Origin: a virus
Virus record (IMG/VR): IMGVR_UViG_3300028832_000024
Reading direction: 5' to 3' (one strand)
DNA length: 45,708 bases
Positions 2,322 through 33,766 of the stretch are shown here, in pieces. The translations under genes were made by a program, and so were the position numbers. A model generated the notes under the pieces. The model made no database searches. It saw only the letters and a program-made list of their open reading frames with translations, and was not told where the DNA came from. Within the stretch, counting starts at the first letter, position 1. The number at the start of each line of letters is the position of its first letter.

Positions 2322-3272
2322 TTAGCGAATCGGCAACGCCTTGATTGCATCGCGGTTTTCTTTCCACGCTTGCGCCATTGCGTCGTCAAATTCTTTTGTT
2401 CCGTTGACCTTTCCTTGCGCCATTAATTGCTTTGCAATAATTTCGTGCGCTTCGTCTTGCGTACGTGCGCCCGAAAGATCAACAGTTCCGCCCGAACCTT
2501 GAATTTCTTTTCCGCCTTGCGATCCCGCCCCCGTTTGTTTGCGTCCTGTTTCCAACACACCCATTGTTGTAAGTTCTTTGGCGACAAGTTCGGCCGCCGT
2601 AAACGGGCGCAAATTGTTTTCGGGGTTTCGACGGGGCGTTCCGTTGTCCATAAATGCAAGGACCTTTCCGCCGTTACCGTCGTCTATATATTCGGGGTTC
2701 ATCGCCTTTACTTTGGCGACGGCCTGTTCAGTAAGGACGGACACGACGGACGCGGGCAAATCGGCCTTGAATTTCAATCCGGCGGTTGCTTTCGCAAATT
2801 CGCCGTCAATCTTCATTCCGAACAGGGCCTTTTCGTGTTCGGATTGGGCGTTGTCGTATTTGGTTTTCAATTCCGCGTATTCCCGCGTAACGTTCCCCAA
2901 ATCGGCCTTTGCCTGTTCCAAAGCGCGTTTTGTTTCAGCGTCCGCGCCACCCTTTGCGATTACCGATTCCAAACGCGCCTTTTCTTTGGTCAGTTCGGAA
3001 ATTTGGCTTTGCAGTTCGGTTGCGTTTCCCGCTTGCGCCTTGATTTCGCCAATTACCCGTTTGGCGTAATCGTAGGTTTTTTCGGTCCCGTTCTTTGCGA
3101 TCCCCGACGCGGCCAAAATATCCGCGTCTAATCCGCCGTAAATTTCGCCTGTCTTTTGGCCAATAACGGCGGTTTCGTCGTTCTTGGACATTTCGACCAC
3201 GGCGTTAATTTGTTCGTCCGAAAGGCCCGCCGTTGCGGAATTGCCTTTCAAAAGTTCGGTTGTTAGTGCCAT
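2322..3272 (-). CDS. Scaffolding protein (putative)
   Basis: 316 aa, rich in Ala/Glu/Lys with long heptad-like stretches (ELQSQISELTKEKARLESV, KADLGNVTREYAELKTKYDNAQSEHEK), immediately upstream of the capsid gene. Confidence 0.5.
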   Translation of the reverse strand: MALTTELLKGNSATAGLSDEQINAVVEMSKNDETAVIGQKTGEIYGGLDADILAASGIAKNGTEKTYDYAKRVIGEIKAQAGNATELQSQISELTKEKARLESVIAKGGADAETKRALEQAKADLGNVTREYAELKTKYDNAQSEHEKALFGMKIDGEFAKATAGLKFKADLPASVVSVLTEQAVAKVKAMNPEYIDDGNGGKVLAFMDNGTPRRNPENNLRPFTAAELVAKELTTMGVLETGRKQTGAGSQGGKEIQGSGGTVDLSGARTQDEAHEIIAKQLMAQGKVNGTKEFDDAMAQAWKENRDAIKALPIR

Positions 3273-3602: not shown

Positions 3603-4055
3603 TTATTCGGTTTCTTCTTTATCGGCCTTTTTACGGCCCTTTTTGGCGGGTTCGCCCTGTTCCTGTTCGTTGGCCTTTTCGCGGTCCGCAAGTGCTTTCG
3701 CAACGGCGGCGGCGACGGCCGCATCGAACTTTTCCTGTTCCGCCTTTTTCTTCGCTTCCGCTTCCGCTTTGGCTAATTCGGCGGCTTTGGCCTGTTGATC
3801 CTTAATCCACGCGTTCGGATCGTGCAAAATTAGGATTTCGTATCCCTGTTTGCGCAAACTGTCGGCGATATGGGATTCAAACGCTTTTTTCCCGAACTTT
3901 TGCACCCGTGGCGTTGAAATGCGCTTGCCTGTTTTCGGGTCAAATTGTTTGACCTCAATAACGGCGTGGTATGCACGTTCTTCGCCTTTGGGAACAATGT
4001 AGTTGTCCGGGGTTAGTCTTTCGATTGGGGTATCCCGCCCGTCTTTTGTTAACAT
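3603..4055 (-). CDS. Hypothetical head-module protein with K/E/A-rich C-terminal tail
   Basis: 150-aa ORF between portal and scaffold. The C-terminus AKAAELAKAEAEAKKKAEQEKFDAAVAAAVAKALADREKANEQEQ is low complexity and helical. Confidence 0.5.
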   Translation of the reverse strand: MLTKDGRDTPIERLTPDNYIVPKGEERAYHAVIEVKQFDPKTGKRISTPRVQKFGKKAFESHIADSLRKQGYEILILHDPNAWIKDQQAKAAELAKAEAEAKKKAEQEKFDAAVAAAVAKALADREKANEQEQGEPAKKGRKKADKEETE

Positions 4056-17188: not shown

Positions 17189-17272
17189 TTTGGGTTGGGT
17201 TTCCTTATCAACTATTCCATTGCGGGCGGTTGTAGTCATTAAATCCCCTTTTGCTGATTTCGGAAACCCTTG

Positions 17273-17354
17273 TACCCCCGCCCGGACTTGAACCGGGACC
17301 CCTGTACGGGACGACATTTTGAGTGTCGCGCGGCTACCTTTTCGCCACGGGGGT
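17273..17354 (-). tRNA. tRNA-Leu(CAA): tRNA-Leu (anticodon CAA), type II with long variable arm
   Basis: Folded by hand. 7-bp acceptor stem ACCCCCG/CGGGGGT, D stem GCG/CGC with a GG loop, anticodon stem CGACA/TGTCG with loop CTCAAAA, 14-nt variable arm, T stem CCCGG/CCGGG with loop TTCAAGT. 82 nt; no encoded CCA. Confidence 0.85.
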
Positions 17355-17360
17355 ATTTTG

Positions 17361-17431
17361 TTGTTGCGTCCGGATTTGAACCGAAACTGTTGGAACCAAA
17401 ATCCAAAGTGCTACCGTTACACCACGCAACA
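17361..17431 (-). tRNA. tRNA-Gln(TTG): tRNA-Gln (anticodon TTG)
   Basis: 7-bp acceptor stem TGTTGCG/CGCAACA, D loop AACGGTA, anticodon stem TTGGA/TCCAA with loop TTTTGGT, T stem TTCGG/CCGGA with loop TTCAAAT. 71 nt. Confidence 0.8.
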
Positions 17432-29342: not shown

Positions 29343-29957
29343 TTATTTTTCGATAACGACGTGTTCGACCCCTAAAATTTTGGTATGCGGGTTCTGGCTT
29401 ACCACGTCCACGCGCCGATCCTGTACGCGCTTCGTTTTCCACAGGAAACCCAAAAATCGCTTATACTTAACCGTTTCGGCCAACAACAGGGAATCCCGAT
29501 TGGCCAACGTTCCCGTAAACTGATCTTTGGTCAACAGTCCGTCAAAGTCGAACCACGCGTCCCCGCAATGGACCGCCACGGCGGGCGTAACGATCGAATC
29601 CCGTACAATGATAACCGTATCCCGTGGCGTGGCCTTTAAGTCAATGATCGTTTGCGATTGGGTCGTATTTACCGCCGATAAGTCCCTGTTGCGGGCTTTA
29701 AGTTCGCGGATCAATTCGGCGTCGTCGGCGCGGAATCGTTCGAATTCCTTTATTGTCAGTTGCAAGGATTCGACCCGCGCGGCGTTCATCGAATCGCGGA
29801 TCTTGAACAATTCCACGTCGGAAAGCAACGCGGCCGTATTCCCTTTGTACCTGTCGCGTTCGGCCGTCAACTGTTCAATTCTTTTGTTGGTCAGTATAAC
29901 GGCAATTGCGACCGCCACAATACAGGCGATCGCAATTAACAGTTTCCGCGCGTCCAT
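29343..29957 (-). CDS. Type II membrane-anchored coiled-coil protein (spanin-like candidate)
   Basis: From ATG 29957 (TAATG overlap): MDARKLLIAIACIVAVAIAVILT (TM anchor), then a coiled-coil RIEQLTAERDRYKGN...IKEFERFRADDAELIRELKARNRDL, then a globular C-terminus. Last gene of the lysis block. Confidence 0.4.
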   Translation of the reverse strand: MDARKLLIAIACIVAVAIAVILTNKRIEQLTAERDRYKGNTAALLSDVELFKIRDSMNAARVESLQLTIKEFERFRADDAELIRELKARNRDLSAVNTTQSQTIIDLKATPRDTVIIVRDSIVTPAVAVHCGDAWFDFDGLLTKDQFTGTLANRDSLLLAETVKYKRFLGFLWKTKRVQDRRVDVVSQNPHTKILGVEHVVIEK

Positions 29958-30325
29958 TATGCGCCGATATGGGTTTTGTCCGTACTGTTGTACGCCCAAC
30001 CGCTTTCGGAATGGTCGTAAGACACGGTTTCCACGTTGGCCGCGTCAGCGTAAGTAAGACACAATCCGCCGTTTTCCGCGTCTTTGTAGGAAACGACGTA
30101 CAAGTGTTGCGCGGTTCCTGTTTTCTTTGCCACTTTGTCGCCAACGTTCAGCGCGTCCAACTGTTCGTCGGTTAGCGCGGTAATGTCGGCAACCTCTAAC
30201 GGAAGCGCGGAACCCGCAAGGGCGGAAAGGATCGCGCCCAACGCGCCGCCCAAATCAATTTGGTTGCCCTGTCCGGCAATCTTTTCGGCGATCAACGCCA
30301 ATAATTCGTCCTGTTTCATATTCAC
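29957..30325 (-). CDS. Hypothetical protein (122 aa)
   Basis: ATG ORF within the lysis block; no motif recognised. Confidence 0.5.
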   Translation of the reverse strand: MNMKQDELLALIAEKIAGQGNQIDLGGALGAILSALAGSALPLEVADITALTDEQLDALNVGDKVAKKTGTAQHLYVVSYKDAENGGLCLTYADAANVETVSYDHSESGWAYNSTDKTHIGA

Positions 30326-30361: not shown

Positions 30362-30742
30362 TTATTTCCTTACAACCCCGCCCAATTTATCCGCCCATTT
30401 TTCAGTAAAAAACGAATAATAGGAACGCCCCCGCGACGGATTCCAATACCACGCCCACAATAGCGACGGAATGCCCACGACAAACAGGTATAAAGGCCCC
30501 AAATAAAGCGATTGGCGGGAATGGCCGTATTCGTGTCCCCAAGTGTCCGGATTCGACAAATACGGCCATTTTACGATAATTGTACGGCCCAACGAAATAC
30601 CGCCCTTAAATTTTCTATCAACAACGACGTTGACGCCACGGAACAGGATTGAACGTCCACGGTATATAACACGAAATGCAAGCCCGACAATATTTTGCGG
30701 GGCTTGCCATATCCAAAGCAATATTTCCCAAACTGTTTTCAT
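30362..30742 (-). CDS. Membrane protein with an HExxHxxQ zincin-like motif
   Basis: From ATG 30742 (ATGA overlap with the amidase stop): an N-terminal hydrophobic helix, WGHEYGHSRQS, then a second hydrophobic segment LYLGPLYLFVVGIPSLLWAWYW. Confidence 0.45.
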   Translation of the reverse strand: MKTVWEILLWIWQAPQNIVGLAFRVIYRGRSILFRGVNVVVDRKFKGGISLGRTIIVKWPYLSNPDTWGHEYGHSRQSLYLGPLYLFVVGIPSLLWAWYWNPSRGRSYYSFFTEKWADKLGGVVRK

Positions 30743-31227
30743 CGTTCCGCCGTGCAAATGGAAATCGGGAATTCGGCCTTTGCATCGAAACACGGGCAAA
30801 GTTTAATCCATTCGTTTTTTTCGATCGTCCCGTTTCCGTTCTTATCGGGGCTTGCGTCCCTGTGGCCGATAACTTCCTTAATCGGGTATTCGTCCATAAG
30901 ACGATAAACCAAGTCAACCAACGCTTTTTTTTGTTCGGGCGTCCGCGTGTCGGCGGGTTCCCCGTTTTCGTCAAGCCCGCCCACGTACACGATTCCGATT
31001 GAATGTTTGTTGTACGATTTCCCCGACAGGCCCGCAGTATTGCAATGCGCCCCGTCGCGGGAAAGAGGTCGGCCCGTTTCCACGGTCCCGTCCAAGTCAA
31101 CGACGTAGTTGTAGCCGATGCAAGCGAAACCGCGTTCTTTATGCATCTTGTCAATGTCGGAAGCCCGCAAGTCTTGGCCCGCGCGGGATGCCGTGCAATG
31201 GATTACGATAGCATCTATTGTTTTCAT
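30739..31227 (-). CDS. N-acetylmuramoyl-L-alanine amidase (Amidase_2 / PGRP-type endolysin)
   Basis: AIVIHCTA...DIDKMHKERGF..IGYNYVV...GAHC...HSIGIVYVGG...VIGHRD......CPCF is the typical T7-lysozyme-type motif order, including the Zn-ligand His/His/Cys positions. Confidence 0.85.
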   Translation of the reverse strand: MKTIDAIVIHCTASRAGQDLRASDIDKMHKERGFACIGYNYVVDLDGTVETGRPLSRDGAHCNTAGLSGKSYNKHSIGIVYVGGLDENGEPADTRTPEQKKALVDLVYRLMDEYPIKEVIGHRDASPDKNGNGTIEKNEWIKLCPCFDAKAEFPISICTAER

Positions 31228-31231
31228 AAAC

Positions 31232-32032
31232 TTATAAGTTTAAACCCAAATTAAAACGGATATTATCAACGGCGTGGTTCTGCAAGATTTCCGCTTCCGT
31301 TAAGGCCCTGTTATAAATACGGATTGAATAGATTTTCCCCATATAATAACTGCCGTTACTGCGCCGTCCTATATAGGTGGTTGCCGTTGAACGCCCGCTC
31401 ATATATGTATTGCCGTGCGCGGTCATTGCTTCCCCGTTTTGGATTGCGCGGTTAACATTGACGCTTGCGACGCCCTTCATTGGCAACGTGTCGTAGGTGG
31501 TTCGGTTCGTTCCGTTCGACCAATTCAGTACGCCGCCCACGCTACCGAACGCAAGCGCGTTTGCAGTTTTCGGCATATACAGAACACGCGTTCCACTTCC
31601 TTCCCTCTCAAAACAAATTTCGATCGTACCCGTGGAGTTTAACGGCGTGGTAAACGCCGTGTTGCTCAAATAATCGTCTGTCCCGTCGAAATATATGTGG
31701 TCCGCATTGAACGTTGCCCCGTTGTTGGTAAATAGAACGTTTCCGACGACGCTTTCCCACGACGTGTTCCCCGTTTTCCCCGTCTTTCCGTCCAAGTGAA
31801 GGACAAGCCCGTCTTGTACGTAATCCGAAAGATTCCCGCCGCTTCCCGCCGCTTGTTGGACCGTAAGGGTTTGCGACACGTTCCCCGCCGTGAAAGTTAC
31901 GACCTTCGAACGGGCCGCCCCCGTATTCGGATCGGAAGAAACCGCGATTTGCTGATTACCCGAAAAGTCGGGGGACGTTATATAAATTTTATCCCCCGAA
32001 CCGTCGGCCCATTCAATTTGTTGTGTCGGCAT
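31232..32032 (-). CDS. Protein with C-terminal half of a BACON domain at its N-terminus plus a LamG (concanavalin-like lectin) domain
   Basis: From ATG 32032: MPTQQIEWADGSGDKIYITSPDFSGNQQIAVSSDPNTGAARSKVVTFTAGNVSQTLTVQQ (second half of a BACON domain). The C-terminus ...YMGKIYSIRIYNRALTEAEI is the classic Laminin_G_3 ending. Confidence 0.65.
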   Translation of the reverse strand: MPTQQIEWADGSGDKIYITSPDFSGNQQIAVSSDPNTGAARSKVVTFTAGNVSQTLTVQQAAGSGGNLSDYVQDGLVLHLDGKTGKTGNTSWESVVGNVLFTNNGATFNADHIYFDGTDDYLSNTAFTTPLNSTGTIEICFEREGSGTRVLYMPKTANALAFGSVGGVLNWSNGTNRTTYDTLPMKGVASVNVNRAIQNGEAMTAHGNTYMSGRSTATTYIGRRSNGSYYMGKIYSIRIYNRALTEAEILQNHAVDNIRFNLGLNL

Positions 32033-32637
32033 TACGAAATCGTCCAATAAGTGTTGGAAGAAACGGTAACGTTAACGGCCGTTCCGTTCGCGTCCATATT
32101 AATCGTTGTCGGGGAAATGGTCAAGTACGCGTCGGCTTCCGCCTGTGTAATTTCGCAAACGGACGATACGTTGTTATTGGTCGTAACTGTCAGTTGGGAA
32201 ACCAACGACGCAACCGACGTGTTGGCGGGAATGTTCGTAAAGGTAATTTCGAATTCGTATTCCTGTATTGCGCCCGGATCGCCCGTAATGGCCGCGCCGT
32301 TTTGCGTGGAAACCGAATTCGCCAAATATGACGACGGCAAAACCAAACCGATTTCGTTTGTACCCGTAAGCGCAAACGTCAGTTTCGAAGAATTCGATCG
32401 GCCGTGTATCGTCAGCGTTCCGCCCGTTTTCGGGACCGCCGCCGTATCGTCAATAATTACGAATTCCGTCTTTCCCGCCTGTATGATCGTAAGGGTTTTG
32501 GATTCCACGCCCGACGCCGAAAACGTGGCCGTCGTTTGACGCGCGGTTCGTCCTGTGTGTTGTGTACCTGTCCATTGGACGGTATCATTTCCGTTTCCAC
32601 TTTGTTTGTTCGGGGAAACCCAACTTGCGTAAGGCAT
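32032..32637 (-). CDS. Protein that starts with a BACON C-terminal half and ends with a BACON N-terminal half
   Basis: N-terminus MPYASWVSPNKQSGNGNDTVQWTGTQHTGRTARQTTATFSASGVESKTLTIIQ. C-terminus YLTISPTTINMDANGTAVNVTVSSNTYWTIS followed by the stop. Confidence 0.6.
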   Translation of the reverse strand: MPYASWVSPNKQSGNGNDTVQWTGTQHTGRTARQTTATFSASGVESKTLTIIQAGKTEFVIIDDTAAVPKTGGTLTIHGRSNSSKLTFALTGTNEIGLVLPSSYLANSVSTQNGAAITGDPGAIQEYEFEITFTNIPANTSVASLVSQLTVTTNNNVSSVCEITQAEADAYLTISPTTINMDANGTAVNVTVSSNTYWTIS

Positions 32638-32649
32638 AATTTGAAAATT

Positions 32650-32946
32650 TTAATTGATTGTCCAATAAGTATTGCTAAATACGTCGTTTTGCGTTTGGCC
32701 CGCCAAAATCCAAACAACCGTAGGACTGATTTCAAGATACGGACCGCGTATATTCGGGGCGCAAGACTGAAACACACGGCAACGGATTCCGCCGATTCGC
32801 TTTGCCGTCGCATCAATCCCGCTGATCCGTTCGGCGTGGACTGCAATAGCGTTGCGGGGTTCGGCCTTTGTGCTGATCCCGCCCACGCGTTCGGCATTAC
32901 AGGCAATCCCGCCGATCCGTTTGCATTTTACGGTCAAACAACCCAT
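32650..32946 (-). CDS. Protein with five decapeptide repeats, ending in a BACON N-terminal half
   Basis: KRIGGIACNA ERVGGISTKA EPRNAIAVHA ERISGIDATA KRIGGIRCRV, then YLEISPTVVWILAGQTQNDVFSNTYWTIN and the stop. The TAA is in frame with the next ORF. Confidence 0.5.
   Translation of the reverse strand: MGCLTVKCKRIGGIACNAERVGGISTKAEPRNAIAVHAERISGIDATAKRIGGIRCRVFQSCAPNIRGPYLEISPTVVWILAGQTQNDVFSNTYWTIN
32773..32922 (-). repeat. Five tandem 30-nt coding repeats
   Basis: Minus strand aaacggatcggcgggattgcctgtaatgcc / gaacgcgtgggcgggatcagcacaaaggcc / gaaccccgcaacgctattgcagtccacgcc / gaacggatcagcgggattgatgcgacggca / aagcgaatcggcggaatccgttgccgtgtg. Confidence 0.8.
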
Positions 32947-32947
32947 A

Positions 32948-33283
32948 TTAAACAGGATTCAAAATTACTATATCGAATTTGTCTATTTCAAGACGGATAC
33001 CGCCTTGAAAGTCCGTATCGGGGACGAACGCTTTTACAATGCAATTGACGATCCCCGCGTGGAAGATCGAAGAATCGAAGCACAAATAATATTTATGCGT
33101 TTCGTTCCCGTTTTCCGTCGTGGTTTCTTCGATAAATTCGCTTTTCGGGATTTCCTTTTCGGTCGGTCCCTGTTTGAGAATGACCGAAAAATCGTCGTTG
33201 TGCATCGAAAAGCCGGGGGCCTCAATTTCGAACAGGAATTTAAGGCCCGATCCCTCAAAAGAATGCGCGATATTTTGTTTCAT
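32948..33283 (-). CDS. Hypothetical protein (111 aa), beta-rich
   Basis: ATG ORF directly downstream of the holin; no motif recognised. Confidence 0.5.
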   Translation of the reverse strand: MKQNIAHSFEGSGLKFLFEIEAPGFSMHNDDFSVILKQGPTEKEIPKSEFIEETTTENGNETHKYYLCFDSSIFHAGIVNCIVKAFVPDTDFQGGIRLEIDKFDIVILNPV

Positions 33284-33295
33284 ATCAATTGTGTT

Positions 33296-33766
33296 TTATT
33301 CTTTTTGTGCGTCGTCGAACGTCATTCCCAACTGATCTTCAACTTTGAATTTCATAAACTTGCGCAACCAACGGAATAAGGGGTGGTCGGAAATAACGGC
33401 CGCGTTTTCAAGAAACGACCAAAATTCAACGCCACAACAAAACGCCGTAAAGTAATTGGCGAACCTTAACCGCGATTCCATATTTTCGGCAAGCACTTGC
33501 GACAACATATCAGCAAGCACAATGCCGATTAGGATAAAGACGTATTTGTATATCGTGCGCCACGCCTTGATTGATTCGAAAGCGAACTTTTGCTTTGTCC
33601 GCTTTGCGACAACGGCGGATTTCAATACGCCCGTTATAAAATCAACCGCTTCGAATACAGTAACGGCAATGAATAGCGGCAACAAATCGTTGACCAACAG
33701 GCCCACGAATCCGGCAAAAAATCCCACTATCAGTTTGTCGGGGTAAAGTGTAAAAGTCCGTATCAT
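33296..33766 (-). CDS. Holin (Phage_holin_4-like, putative)
   Basis: Three to four hydrophobic helices, DFITGVLKSAV...KAWRTIYKY and VEFWSFLENAAV (the E..S..EN signature of that holin family). Confidence 0.6.
   Translation of the reverse strand: MIRTFTLYPDKLIVGFFAGFVGLLVNDLLPLFIAVTVFEAVDFITGVLKSAVVAKRTKQKFAFESIKAWRTIYKYVFILIGIVLADMLSQVLAENMESRLRFANYFTAFCCGVEFWSFLENAAVISDHPLFRWLRKFMKFKVEDQLGMTFDDAQKE

What the first reader, a model, noticed from the sequence alone, without database searches (positions are those of the whole stretch)
32635..32652. A BACON domain is cut by a single in-frame TAA between two genes
The 98-aa ORF ends ...YLEISPTVVWILAGQTQNDVFSNTYWTIN, then TAA.

Four in-frame codons later (N F Q I) the next ORF starts: MPYASWVSPNKQSGNGNDTVQWTGTQHTGRTARQTTATFSASGVESKTLTIIQ.

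Joined, the two pieces read as one canonical BACON domain (l.vsP..v.f.a.g....v.SN..W.......sW.sv.P..G.G....v......g..aR.a......g....l.v.Q). The stop lies in the loop after the SNxxW strand.

The possibilities are programmed TAA read-through that yields a minor fused fibre, two polypeptides that rebuild the Ig-like fold by strand complementation, or a recent nonsense mutation.
Basis: partly seen in the sequence, partly recalled or inferred. Interest (0 to 1): 0.75.

Follow-up and report, generated by a model that had tools for sequence, protein, structure and literature searches.

The report
Half-BACON ends on three phage genes
The stop codon is a real and ancient gene boundary: three neighbouring phage genes each carry half of a BACON (Ig-like) fold at their ends, in hundreds of gut-phage lineages including crAss-like phages, probably so that separate virion-surface proteins click together.

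Summary
All genes are on the minus strand. Gene A (98 aa, 32650..32946) ends ...SNTYWTIN-TAA. Twelve in-frame bases follow, then gene B (201 aa, 32032..32637) starts MPYASWVSP....

The same split occurs a second time. B ends ...SNTYWTIS-TAA, overlapping the ATG (TAATG) of gene C (266 aa, 31232..32032). C starts with the matching C-terminal half.

The joined halves are BACON:
- A profile of 27 joined A-end/B-start sequences aligns across the junction to the solved BACON of BoGH5A (3ZMR, E=1.6e-6).
- Naturally fused relatives hit Pfam BACON_2 across both halves.

Read-through and a recent nonsense mutation are refuted:
- All 78 distinct relatives (32-100% identity) keep the split.
- A|B spacers run 5-132 nt; about half are out of frame, and 13 of 30 in-frame ones hold another stop.
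- All three stop codons are used.
- One relative places A downstream of B-C.
- There is no suppressor tRNA and no RNA structure.

Best reading (inferred): the half-domains are terminal connectors completed after translation, an N-half "plug" at a C-terminus and a C-half "socket" at an N-terminus. Which half pairs with which is unresolved. Covariation shows B's own two halves contact each other, so B may close on itself as a circular permutant or stack head to tail. I found no description in the papers searched.

The parts
32650..32946 (-). Gene A (98 aa). Conserved MGCL N-terminus, five roughly 10-aa repeats (A-E/K-R-I-G-G-I-x-x-x), then a C-terminal BACON N-half. The TAA stop is at 32650..32652.
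   Evidence: A-type ORFs ending ...YLEIxPxxxW...SNTxWxIx-stop precede B in most related loci.
32773..32922 (-). Repeat region of A (residues 9-58). It is a peptide repeat, not a DNA tandem repeat. Proposed anchor part.
   Evidence: Read from the translation. TRF finds no DNA array. Similar repeats occur in A homologues of L006, L010, L013, L014, L054 and L100.
32653..32745 (-). BACON N-half at the C-terminus of A (residues 68-98, GPYLEISPTVVWILAGQTQNDVFSNTYWTIN): the 'plug'.
   Evidence: It aligns to the N-terminal strands of BACON_2 / 3ZMR when joined to a C-half.
32638..32649 (-). 12-nt A/T-rich intergenic spacer (AATTTTCAAATT). It is in frame here by accident.
   Evidence: length 5-132 nt in relatives, sequence not conserved, 20% GC; no RNA structure.
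32032..32637 (-). Gene B (201 aa): BACON C-half + middle all-beta domain + BACON N-half. The stop at 32032..32034 overlaps the ATG of C.
   Evidence: large family with fixed ends. AF2 pLDDT 96.6, pTM 0.81. BFVD match TM 0.89.
32470..32637 (-). BACON C-half at the N-terminus of B (residues 1-56): the 'socket'.
   Evidence: DCA couplings to residues 173-201.
32137..32469 (-). Middle domain of B (residues 57-167, nine predicted beta strands, conserved GDPGA motif).
32035..32136 (-). BACON N-half at the C-terminus of B (residues 168-201, ...AYLTISPTTINMDANGTAVNVTVSSNTYWTIS).
   Evidence: (all 78 distinct B sequences keep the N-half ending: 77 end SNTxW..., L018 ends NTTFTVTPKA).
31232..32032 (-). 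Gene C (266 aa from the ATG at 32032; the ORF listing gives an upstream TTG at 32047): BACON C-half followed by a concanavalin-A/LamG-like domain.
   Evidence: PF13004 residues 23-61; PF13385 residues 123-249. C-type N-termini are conserved in relatives.
31847..32032 (-). BACON C-half at the N-terminus of C (residues 1-62).
32948..33283 (-). Conserved 111-aa companion ORF (C-terminal motif ...VPDTDFxGGxR...). It travels together with A.
   Evidence: Homologues sit directly upstream of A in L006, L010, L013, L014 and L100, and move with A in L054. No Pfam or PHROG hit.
33296..33766 (-). Holin (context only).
   Evidence: PF05105 E=1.3e-13; phrog_199.
30739..31227 (-). N-acetylmuramoyl-L-alanine amidase endolysin (context only).
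   Evidence: phrog_822 E=2.7e-51.

Best explanation
The TAA is the normal stop of gene A. It is one of two equivalent, ancient gene boundaries (A|B and B|C) that fall in the same surface loop of a BACON (Ig-like beta-sandwich) fold. A, B and C are made as three separate proteins.

Each carries an incomplete half-BACON at a terminus:
- A ends in an N-half (a 'plug').
- B starts with a C-half (a 'socket') and ends with a plug.
- C starts with a socket, followed by a LamG-like domain.

My preferred mechanism is that these halves are terminal connectors. After translation a plug and a socket from different chains assemble into one complete BACON sandwich by fold complementation. This would link an anchor protein (A), one or more middle links (B) and a distal binding protein (C) into a non-covalent virion-surface adhesin or fibre. 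It would also let phages swap modules at the junctions.

Shown here:
- The split is conserved.
- The genes are translationally independent.
- The joined halves are colinear with a solved BACON domain.
- Every junction type also exists as a covalent fusion in relatives.
- B's two halves co-vary as if in contact.

Inferred, not shown:
- That complementation happens between chains.
- That A's plug enters B's socket.
- That the products are virion-borne glycan adhesins.

Confidence is about 0.9 that this is a conserved gene boundary with no recoding, and about 0.5 for the trans plug-and-socket chain.
For: Conservation of the split:
- B homologues number more than 1500, and the top 120 are all 201-202 aa.
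- There are 745 clusters at 50% identity, mostly about 200 aa matching residues 1-201.
- All 78 distinct loci have B starting with the C-half and ending in the same N-half, all but the most distant (L018) as SNTxW....
- The same A-B-C triplet is in the RefSeq crAss-like genome cr111_1, gp003-gp005.

Translational independence:
- Spacers are 5-132 nt at A|B and -1 to 155 nt at B|C, with mixed frames and stop codons.
- A is relocated in L054.

The halves make one BACON:
- Pfam BACON_2 spans the N-half plus the C-half in natural fusions: P0220 residues 177-265, model 2-93, 35.7 bits; also P0296, P0123 and P0144.
- The junction profile aligns to 3zmr_A across the join.

Rosetta-stone fusions of every junction type:
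- anchor-B: P0227.
- B-B: P0123, P0220, P0296.
- B-C: P0148, P0272, P0287.
- L100 has a B-C fusion and still keeps an A-type gene with a plug 1 nt upstream.

Terminal-connector pattern independent of cargo:
- Proteins of 685, 845 and 1304 aa begin with a socket and end with a plug.
- Each is preceded by a protein ending in a near-identical plug.
- In L124 it is followed by a socket-only protein.

Gene linkage:
- 16 of 17 loci picked by the C-type socket have it directly after a B gene, mostly with a TAATG overlap.
- Many C-type proteins are only about 90 aa, essentially just a socket or cap.
Against: - No multimer prediction or experiment could be run, so no plug-socket pair between chains has been seen.
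- Direct-coupling analysis on 296 B-family sequences (Neff 122) gives a coherent ladder between B's own halves: K47-S175, L49-I174, T50-T178, I52-N180, A54-N180/M181/D182, plus S40-S201, A41-T196 and R33-W198.
- AlphaFold2 folds B alone as one rigid body (pLDDT 96.6, pTM 0.81).
- That shape matches an independent BFVD model of a 30%-identical homologue at TM 0.89.
- Phage csAssE-Sib has a lone B gene with no A or C beside it.
- These four results fit B closing on itself at least as well as they fit a chain.
- Some loci have more plugs than sockets (L123, L125), so an unpaired half can apparently exist.
- The window's own A-end/B-start join scores below the Pfam threshold.
- The module lies between the holin and the endolysin, so a virion role is not certain.
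Confidence: 0.5

Rival explanations
1. B is a circular permutant that closes on itself. Its N-terminal C-half and C-terminal N-half form one BACON sandwich in cis, lying beside the middle domain, so both stops simply mark the new termini of a permuted domain. A's plug and C's socket then pair with each other in trans (an A:C heterodimer) or stay unpaired. On this reading nothing is rebuilt across the A|B stop.
For: - DCA ladder between B's own halves with Ig-like topology: A/A' parallel to G, C antiparallel to F. The same pairs recur in the 60-locus subset.
- AF2 gives a rigid monomer model (pLDDT 96.6, pTM 0.81), reproduced by an independent BFVD model (TM 0.89, rmsd 1.8 A over 203 columns).
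- Lone B gene in csAssE-Sib.
- A is not always adjacent to B.
- Tandem B-B fusions exist. These are the intermediates expected by the permutation-by-duplication model.
Against:
- AF2 and DCA cannot tell contacts within a chain from head-to-tail contacts between chains.
- Proteins of 685-1304 aa keep a socket at the very N-terminus and a plug at the very C-terminus, with long fibre-like cargo between them. This is awkward for cis closure.
- B-C and anchor-B fusions keep canonical BACON loop lengths across the join.
- The tight B-to-C coupling and gene order fit a chain better.
- The conserved plug on the upstream protein would have no partner in L123 and L125.
Confidence: 0.35
2. There is no structural interdependence. 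The half-BACON ends are scars of repeated recombination or gene fission at a conserved DNA/protein motif (SNTxWT). Each protein folds or functions alone, with other strands substituting for the missing half (for example the hairpin that follows the socket in short C-type proteins), or the halves dock onto other virion proteins.
For: - AF2 still gives pLDDT 85-97 to a C-half in a construct with one more C-half than N-halves (P0287).
- Short C-type proteins carry a conserved two-strand tail after the socket.
- Plug/socket counts are unbalanced in some loci.
- Pairwise distances suggest that A, B and C recombine as separate modules.
Against: - A 30-aa three-strand piece and a 55-aa four-strand piece are not stable Ig-like folds alone.
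- Both kinds of half are strongly conserved in sequence and position over 32-100% identity and across siphovirus-like, myovirus-like and crAss-like phages.
- The DCA shows real N-half/C-half contacts.
Confidence: 0.1
3. Programmed TAA read-through (or termination-reinitiation giving a fusion) produces a minor A-B fusion protein in this phage.
For: In the window the spacer is in frame with no further stop. The 12-nt in-frame spacer is the commonest class (15 of 59 junctions).
Against: - 28 of 58 distinct junctions are out of frame, and 13 of the 30 in-frame spacers have another in-frame stop, for example TGA in L058.
- The spacer sequence and its peptide are not conserved.
- B|C in the same window is out of frame (TAATG).
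- A can lie elsewhere in the locus.
- TAA is the least leaky stop codon (established knowledge).
- No suppressor tRNA: the only tRNAs are Leu-CAA and Gln-TTG.
- No stimulatory RNA structure and no Rfam element.
Confidence: 0.03
4. A recent nonsense mutation or assembly error split one gene, making it a pseudogene.
For: None beyond the in-frame arrangement.
Against: - The same boundary is present in every one of 78 distinct relatives and in hundreds of protein clusters.
- An identical copy sits on an independent IMG/VR contig (L001, 100%).
- B has its own ATG and an A/T-rich upstream region.
- Both flanking ORFs are intact and conserved.
Confidence: 0.01

Closest known systems
BACON domain (Pfam PF13004 / viral BACON_2 PF19190; solved in BoGH5A, PDB 3ZMR), including the BACON repeat proteins of crAssphage and other gut phages
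   Same: The same fold signature: l.vsP...SNxxW / W..vsP.sGsGn..v.v....tG..R...v.f.....v.v.Q. The junction profile aligns to 3ZMR residues 24-92. Fused relatives pass both Pfam models. The setting is also the same: Bacteroidota-infecting gut phages and putative glycan or mucus adhesion (PMC6949934, PMC13370021).
   Different: Here the domain is never contiguous. Gene boundaries cut it after the SNxxW strand, so the halves sit at protein termini. B has the halves in permuted order around an extra domain. The papers I could search do not mention split or permuted BACON domains.
Donor-strand complementation/exchange in chaperone-usher pili, and strand exchange in Bacteroidales type V pili
   Same: An incomplete Ig-like fold in one subunit is completed by a segment of the neighbouring subunit, giving ordered non-covalent chains with dedicated first and last subunits. 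Foldseek lists pilins and pilus chaperones among the generic hits.
   Different: In pili one strand is donated. Here three strands would meet four, about half a domain. No chaperone, usher or maturation protease is evident. There is no sequence relationship. Complementation is only inferred here.
Circular permutation by tandem duplication and truncation (permutation-by-duplication model)
   Same: B has the C-terminal part of a domain at its N-terminus and the N-terminal part at its C-terminus. Tandem B-B intermediates exist. Covariation links the two ends.
   Different: The permuted domain embraces a second domain. The left-over halves are not lost: they are kept, conserved, on the neighbouring genes A and C.
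Naturally split domains that reassemble, such as split inteins (DnaE-n/DnaE-c)
   Same: One fold is encoded in two genes and reconstituted by high-affinity fragment association.
   Different: There is no catalysis or splicing here. The halves are adjacent genes in one operon and would act as a structural joint.
Adapter/anchor docking of phage receptor-binding proteins (for example branched tailspike complexes of CBA120 or G7C-like phages; crAss001 gp22 docking on tail hubs, PMC10172136)
   Same: Separate genes for anchor and distal binding modules, with exchangeable distal modules and a conserved docking end.
   Different: Known systems dock folded N-terminal domains or peptides onto a folded partner. 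They do not dock by sharing one beta-sandwich.

Membership tests
BACON domain (PF13004 / PF19190) | Significant match to the curated profile | tested here: met
   - C N-terminus: PF13004, 25.5 bits against a cutoff of 25.
- B-end+C-start join: 33.1 bits.
- 23 of 27 A-end+B-start joins from relatives hit PF19190, best 2e-8.
- The window's own A|B join is sub-threshold at 15 bits.
BACON domain (PF13004 / PF19190) | Homology to a BACON domain of solved structure | tested here: met
   The profile of joined halves matches 3zmr_A residues 24-92 at E=1.6e-6, with the alignment continuous across the junction. It also matches 9s8x_A and 8va4_A.
BACON domain (PF13004 / PF19190) | A complete domain within one polypeptide | tested here: not met
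   A has only model positions up to about 30 of PF19190. B and C start at about position 32-41. In fused relatives the model spans 2-93.
Programmed stop-codon read-through | Downstream ORF conserved in frame with no further stop | tested here: not met
   28 of 58 junctions are out of frame, and 13 of the 30 in-frame spacers carry another stop.
Programmed stop-codon read-through | Stimulatory RNA element, leaky stop context or suppressor tRNA | tested here: not met
   Junction RNA fold z=+1.7. No Rfam hit. The only tRNAs are Leu-CAA and Gln-TTG.
Pseudogene / recent nonsense mutation | Close relatives have the intact, contiguous gene | tested here: not met
   All 78 distinct relatives are split. 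Fusions occur only in distant lineages.
Circularly permuted domain (gene B) | Segments of the canonical domain in swapped order in one chain | tested here: met
   B residues 1-56 correspond to the BACON C-half and residues 168-201 to the N-half.
Circularly permuted domain (gene B) | The two segments pack into one domain within the same chain | tested here: inconclusive
   The DCA ladder and the rigid AF2 model show contact. They cannot tell contact within one chain from head-to-tail contact between chains.
Donor-strand / fold complementation assembly | Subunit with an incomplete fold, plus the complementary segment on another subunit | tested here: met
   Met at sequence level only: plug-only (A), socket+plug (B) and socket-only (C) proteins.
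Donor-strand / fold complementation assembly | A physical complex in which the fold is completed between chains | not testable with these tools
No experiment was possible.

The most novel reading that the evidence does not exclude
Half-BACON termini form a general plug-and-socket coupling system. Virion-surface proteins of gut Bacteroidota phages (siphovirus-like, myovirus-like and Crassvirales) would be joined end to end by sharing one Ig-like sandwich, three strands from one chain and four from the next. Dedicated starter proteins carry a plug only, link proteins carry a socket and a plug, and cap or tip proteins carry a socket only. Fusion and fission at the joint would be evolutionarily frequent, which allows mix-and-match of adhesin modules.
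Probability: 0.4. Interest if true: 0.8.

Novelty: new variant of a known kind. Interest (0 to 1): 0.66.

Why it matters
BACON-carrying proteins are among the most common accessory surface proteins of abundant human and animal gut phages. They have recently been tied to mucosal and epithelial adherence (PMC13370021).

If these proteins are assembled from separate genes through a shared, split Ig-like fold, several things follow:
- Gene-by-gene annotation will keep missing the real multi-chain adhesins. Relatives are currently labelled "hypothetical", "lipocalin-like" or "cellulase".
- It explains how phages can swap distal binding modules while keeping the anchor.
- It adds a natural half-domain complementation joint to the short list of such protein-protein couplings (pilus donor strands, split inteins).
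- It could be borrowed as a protein-engineering connector.

The hypothesis is directly testable with three small proteins. Even under the more conservative reading (B as a circular permutant), the conserved retention of the left-over halves on both neighbouring genes is unusual.

Tried and rejected
No multimer-like model could be made.
- I folded B alone and a natural B+short-C fusion, P0287. pLDDT stayed high everywhere, including on a C-half in a construct with one more C-half than N-halves, so pLDDT could not tell which halves pair. Coordinates are not exposed.
- Foldseek against PDB gave only generic tandem Ig-like hits, TM 0.3-0.4.
- Megablast of the region against isolated phages found no match.
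- PHROGs gave nothing for A or B.
- phmmer of a single joined domain against PDB gave only chance antibody hits. The profile search worked.
- The third homologue search, with only the C-type socket, returned 2 proteins and was wasted.
- Correlation of pairwise distances between the four halves is confounded by linkage and collinearity.
- Small-sample mutual information for A-end against B-start or C-start is dominated by clade effects. Neither decides the partner of A's plug.
- I first read the proteins above 1500 aa as arrays of B units. They are cellular BACON-repeat proteins with secretion signals and no middle domain, so I dropped them.
- TRF found no DNA tandem repeat under A's peptide repeats.
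- Literature searches for split BACON, fold complementation or strand complementation in phage tails found nothing relevant.
Full report
**1. The observation**

All the genes concerned are on the minus strand.
- ORF A (32650..32946, 98 aa) ends ...GPYLEISPTVVWILAGQTQNDVFSNTYWTIN, with TAA at 32652..32650.
- Twelve bases follow (AATTTTCAAATT; N-F-Q-I if read in frame).
- ORF B (32032..32637, 201 aa) then starts MPYASWVSPNKQSGNGNDTVQWTGTQHTGRTARQTTATFSASGVESKTLTIIQ.

What it missed is that the same thing happens again one gene later.
- B ends ...AYLTISPTTINMDANGTAVNVTVSSNTYWTIS-TAA.
- That stop overlaps by one base (TAATG) the ATG of ORF C (31232..32032, 266 aa).
- C begins MPTQQIEWADGSGDKIYITSPDFSGNQQIAVSSDPNTGAARSKVVTFTAGNVSQTLTVQQ, in a different reading frame.

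The layout is therefore: A = repeats + N-half; B = C-half + middle domain + N-half; C = C-half + LamG-like domain (PF13385).

**2. Is it BACON?**

With the window's own sequences the evidence is mixed.
- C alone hits PF13004 (model positions 17-61, 25.5 bits).
- The B-end/C-start join rises to 33.1 bits.
- The A-end/B-start join gives only a weak PF19190 hit of 15 bits.

The family settles it.
- Of 27 A-end/B-start joins taken from diverse relatives, 23 hit PF19190 (best 2e-8) and 16 hit PF13004.
- A profile of these joins aligns to the BACON domain of the solved xyloglucanase BoGH5A (3zmr_A residues 24-92, E=1.6e-6). The alignment runs straight across the junction...ntdWkie|MayasWvsp... against ...AEWHISTS-ESWCKSS....
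- In relatives where the pieces are naturally fused, PF19190 covers both halves in one stretch above threshold. P0220 matches at residues 177-265, model 2-93, 35.7 bits; P0296, P0123 and P0144 behave the same way.

Neither A nor B holds a whole domain.

**3. Not a mutation, not recoding**

B is a very large family with fixed ends.
- More than 1500 homologues were found, and the best 120 are all 201-202 aa.
- There are 745 clusters at 50% identity, most about 200 aa and matching residues 1-201 end to end.

I fetched 99 related loci from viral, genome and metagenome collections, covering B identity 32-100%.
- In all 78 distinct B genes the protein starts with the C-half and ends in the same N-half, as SNTxW... 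in all but the most distant one, L018.
- A|B spacers are 5, 6, 9, 11-25, 28, 31, 78 or 132 nt.
- B|C spacers are -1 (35 cases), 0, 2, 3, 4, 6, 8-11, 33, 45, 66 or 155 nt.
- Stops are TAA, TAG and TGA.
- Of 58 distinct A|B junctions, 28 are out of frame. Of the 30 in frame, 13 contain another in-frame stop, for example AAT CAC TGA ATT in L058.
- The spacers are 20% GC and their "peptides" are unrelated.
- In L054 the order is B-C-108aa-A, so A is not even next to B.

The window itself gives no support for recoding.
- It encodes only tRNA-Leu(CAA) and tRNA-Gln(TTG).
- It has no Rfam element near the junction.
- The junction RNA is less structured than shuffled controls (z=+1.7), as expected for an initiation region.

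Read-through, frameshifting and a recent nonsense mutation are therefore excluded as the explanation of the arrangement. A trace of read-through in this particular phage cannot be formally excluded, but nothing selects for it.

**4. What the family looks like**

Three kinds of protein recur.
- Plug-only proteins have a variable N-terminal part and then an N-half at the very C-terminus. A and its homologues are of this kind, and so are the 126-343-aa proteins in crAss-like and myovirus-like phages.
- Socket-plus-plug proteins include B, and also proteins of 685, 845 and 1304 aa with long cargo between the two halves.
- Socket-only proteins have a C-half at the very N-terminus. It is followed either by a binding-type domain (LamG-like in the window) or by only about 25 more residues, giving roughly 90-aa "caps".

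Every junction type also exists as a covalent fusion somewhere.
- Anchor-B: P0227.
- B-B: P0123, P0220, and the 408-aa P0296 family in a 94.7-kb crAss-like contig.
- B-C: P0148, P0272, P0287.
- L100 has a B-C fusion and still keeps an A-type gene with its plug 1 nt upstream.

The RefSeq crAss-like genome cr111_1 has the same triplet, gp003-gp005. It is annotated only as hypothetical or "lipocalin-like, BACON binding domain".

A conserved roughly 110-aa ORF (window 32948..33283) accompanies A and moves with it in L054.

**5. Which half pairs with which?**

This could not be settled.

For a chain (A plug into B socket, B plug into C socket):
- Gene order follows the proposed chain order.
- B and C are very tightly coupled. 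Sixteen of 17 loci selected by the C-type socket have it directly after B, mostly through a TAATG overlap.
- Fusions exist at each joint, with canonical BACON loop lengths across the join.
- The long socket...plug proteins are each preceded by a protein with a near-identical plug.

For B closing on itself:
- Mean-field DCA on 296 B-family sequences (Neff 122) recovers sensible within-domain contacts. It also gives a coherent parallel ladder between the last strand of B's N-terminal half and the first strand of its C-terminal half.
- The ladder pairs are K47-S175, L49-I174/T178, T50-T178, I52-N180 and A54-N180/M181/D182, at ranks 8-120. About 0.25 such pairs would be expected by chance in that band.
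- C-F type pairs also appear: S40-S201, A41-T196, R33-W198.
- AF2 folds B alone as one rigid body (pLDDT 96.6, pTM 0.81).
- An independent BFVD model of a 30%-identical homologue superposes at TM 0.89 and 1.8 A.
- Phage csAssE-Sib carries a lone B gene between opposite-strand genes.

Covariation and single-chain AF2 cannot distinguish contacts within a chain from head-to-tail contacts between copies of B. AF2 is also known to self-complement pilins. This evidence therefore fits either a closed circular permutant or a B-B polymer capped by A and C.

**6. Most likely mechanism**

I commit to the plug-and-socket reading with about 0.5 confidence.
- The half-BACON termini are connectors.
- They are completed after translation between chains.
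- This gives an anchor (A, perhaps with the 111-aa protein), link(s) (B) and a distal LamG-like binder (C).

The main rival, at about 0.35, is that B is a self-closed circular permutant. A and C would then pair with each other or stay unpaired.

That the three are separate proteins and that the boundary is ancient is about 0.9.

The likely role is glycan, capsule or mucus adhesion on the virion, by analogy with other phage BACON proteins (PMC6949934, PMC13370021). This is an inference.

The genomic context is compatible with that role but not conclusive.
- The window looks like a complete siphovirus-like genome of about 45.7 kb. It has a portal, large terminase, tape-measure protein, tail-fibre-like proteins and a GDSL-esterase protein. 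Related contigs are 45-46 kb.
- The 111aa-A-B-C block sits between the holin (PF05105) and the amidase endolysin.
- In other lineages the block follows the tape-measure and distal-tail genes (L012, L014) or precedes the tail sheath (L123-L125).

**7. Comparison with what is known, and novelty**

The fold is a known one (BACON). Fold or strand complementation between subunits is known from pili, and fragment reassembly is known from split inteins. Circular permutation by duplication is also known.

Not described in the papers I could search:
- A BACON or Ig-like domain that is systematically divided between neighbouring genes at a fixed loop.
- Plug-only, socket-only and socket-plus-plug proteins spread across unrelated phage morphotypes, including Crassvirales.

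I rate it a new variant of a known kind. It is of real interest to phage structural biologists and directly testable. The central mechanistic step is still an inference.

Noticed in passing
window 32773..32922 (-), residues 9-58 of gene A: A's N-terminal part is five roughly 10-aa repeats (KRIGGIACNA / ERVGGISTKA / EPRNAIAVHA / ERISGIDATA / KRIGGIRCRV) after a conserved MGCL start. A homologues in L014, L054 and L100 have comparable repeats with quite different sequences. No family hit. It may be the anchor part.
   Followed up: partly
window 32948..33283 (-): A 111-aa ORF with the C-terminal motif ...VPDTDFQGGIR... is conserved directly upstream of A in many loci and relocates together with A in L054. 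No Pfam or PHROG match. Likely a functional partner of A.
   Followed up: partly
window 30739..33766 (-): The 111aa-A-B-C block is inserted between the holin (33296..33766) and the amidase endolysin (30739..31227). In other relatives it lies next to, but not inside, the lysis genes. A role connected with lysis rather than the virion cannot be ruled out.
   Followed up: no
L007, L008, L009 (about 20 nt upstream of the B start at 4001): Three otherwise near-identical contigs differ in the length of a poly-A run (8, 9 or 10 A) just before the ATG of B. This shifts the frame relative to the upstream gene. It could be assembly noise or a slippage-prone tract affecting initiation.
   Followed up: no
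window 17272..17431 (-): Two adjacent phage-encoded tRNA genes, Leu(CAA) and Gln(TTG). Neither is a suppressor.
   Followed up: yes
window 31232..32047 (-): The mechanical ORF call for C starts at a TTG at 32047, inside B. Relatives show that the real start is the ATG at 32032, overlapping B's stop (TAATG).
   Followed up: yes
L105 (phage csAssE-Sib OR575929, locus 2480..3136): A lone B homologue (218 aa) is annotated 'glycosyl hydrolase family 5 / xyloglucanase', evidently by transfer from the BACON domain of BoGH5A. BFVD relatives are likewise named 'Cellulase'. These annotations are misleading because no catalytic domain is present.
   Followed up: partly
L124 and L125 (plug regions of the upstream gene and of the 685/1304-aa gene): Within one genome the two plugs, and the 30-40 residues before them, are nearly identical to each other. 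This suggests concerted evolution or recent duplication of the connector.
   Followed up: no
window 29343..29999 (-) and L102 6215..6799: A DUF6549 protein lies near the module both in this siphovirus-like window and in a crAss-like contig. In cr111_1 the gene after the module region is annotated as a lysis regulatory protein.
   Followed up: no
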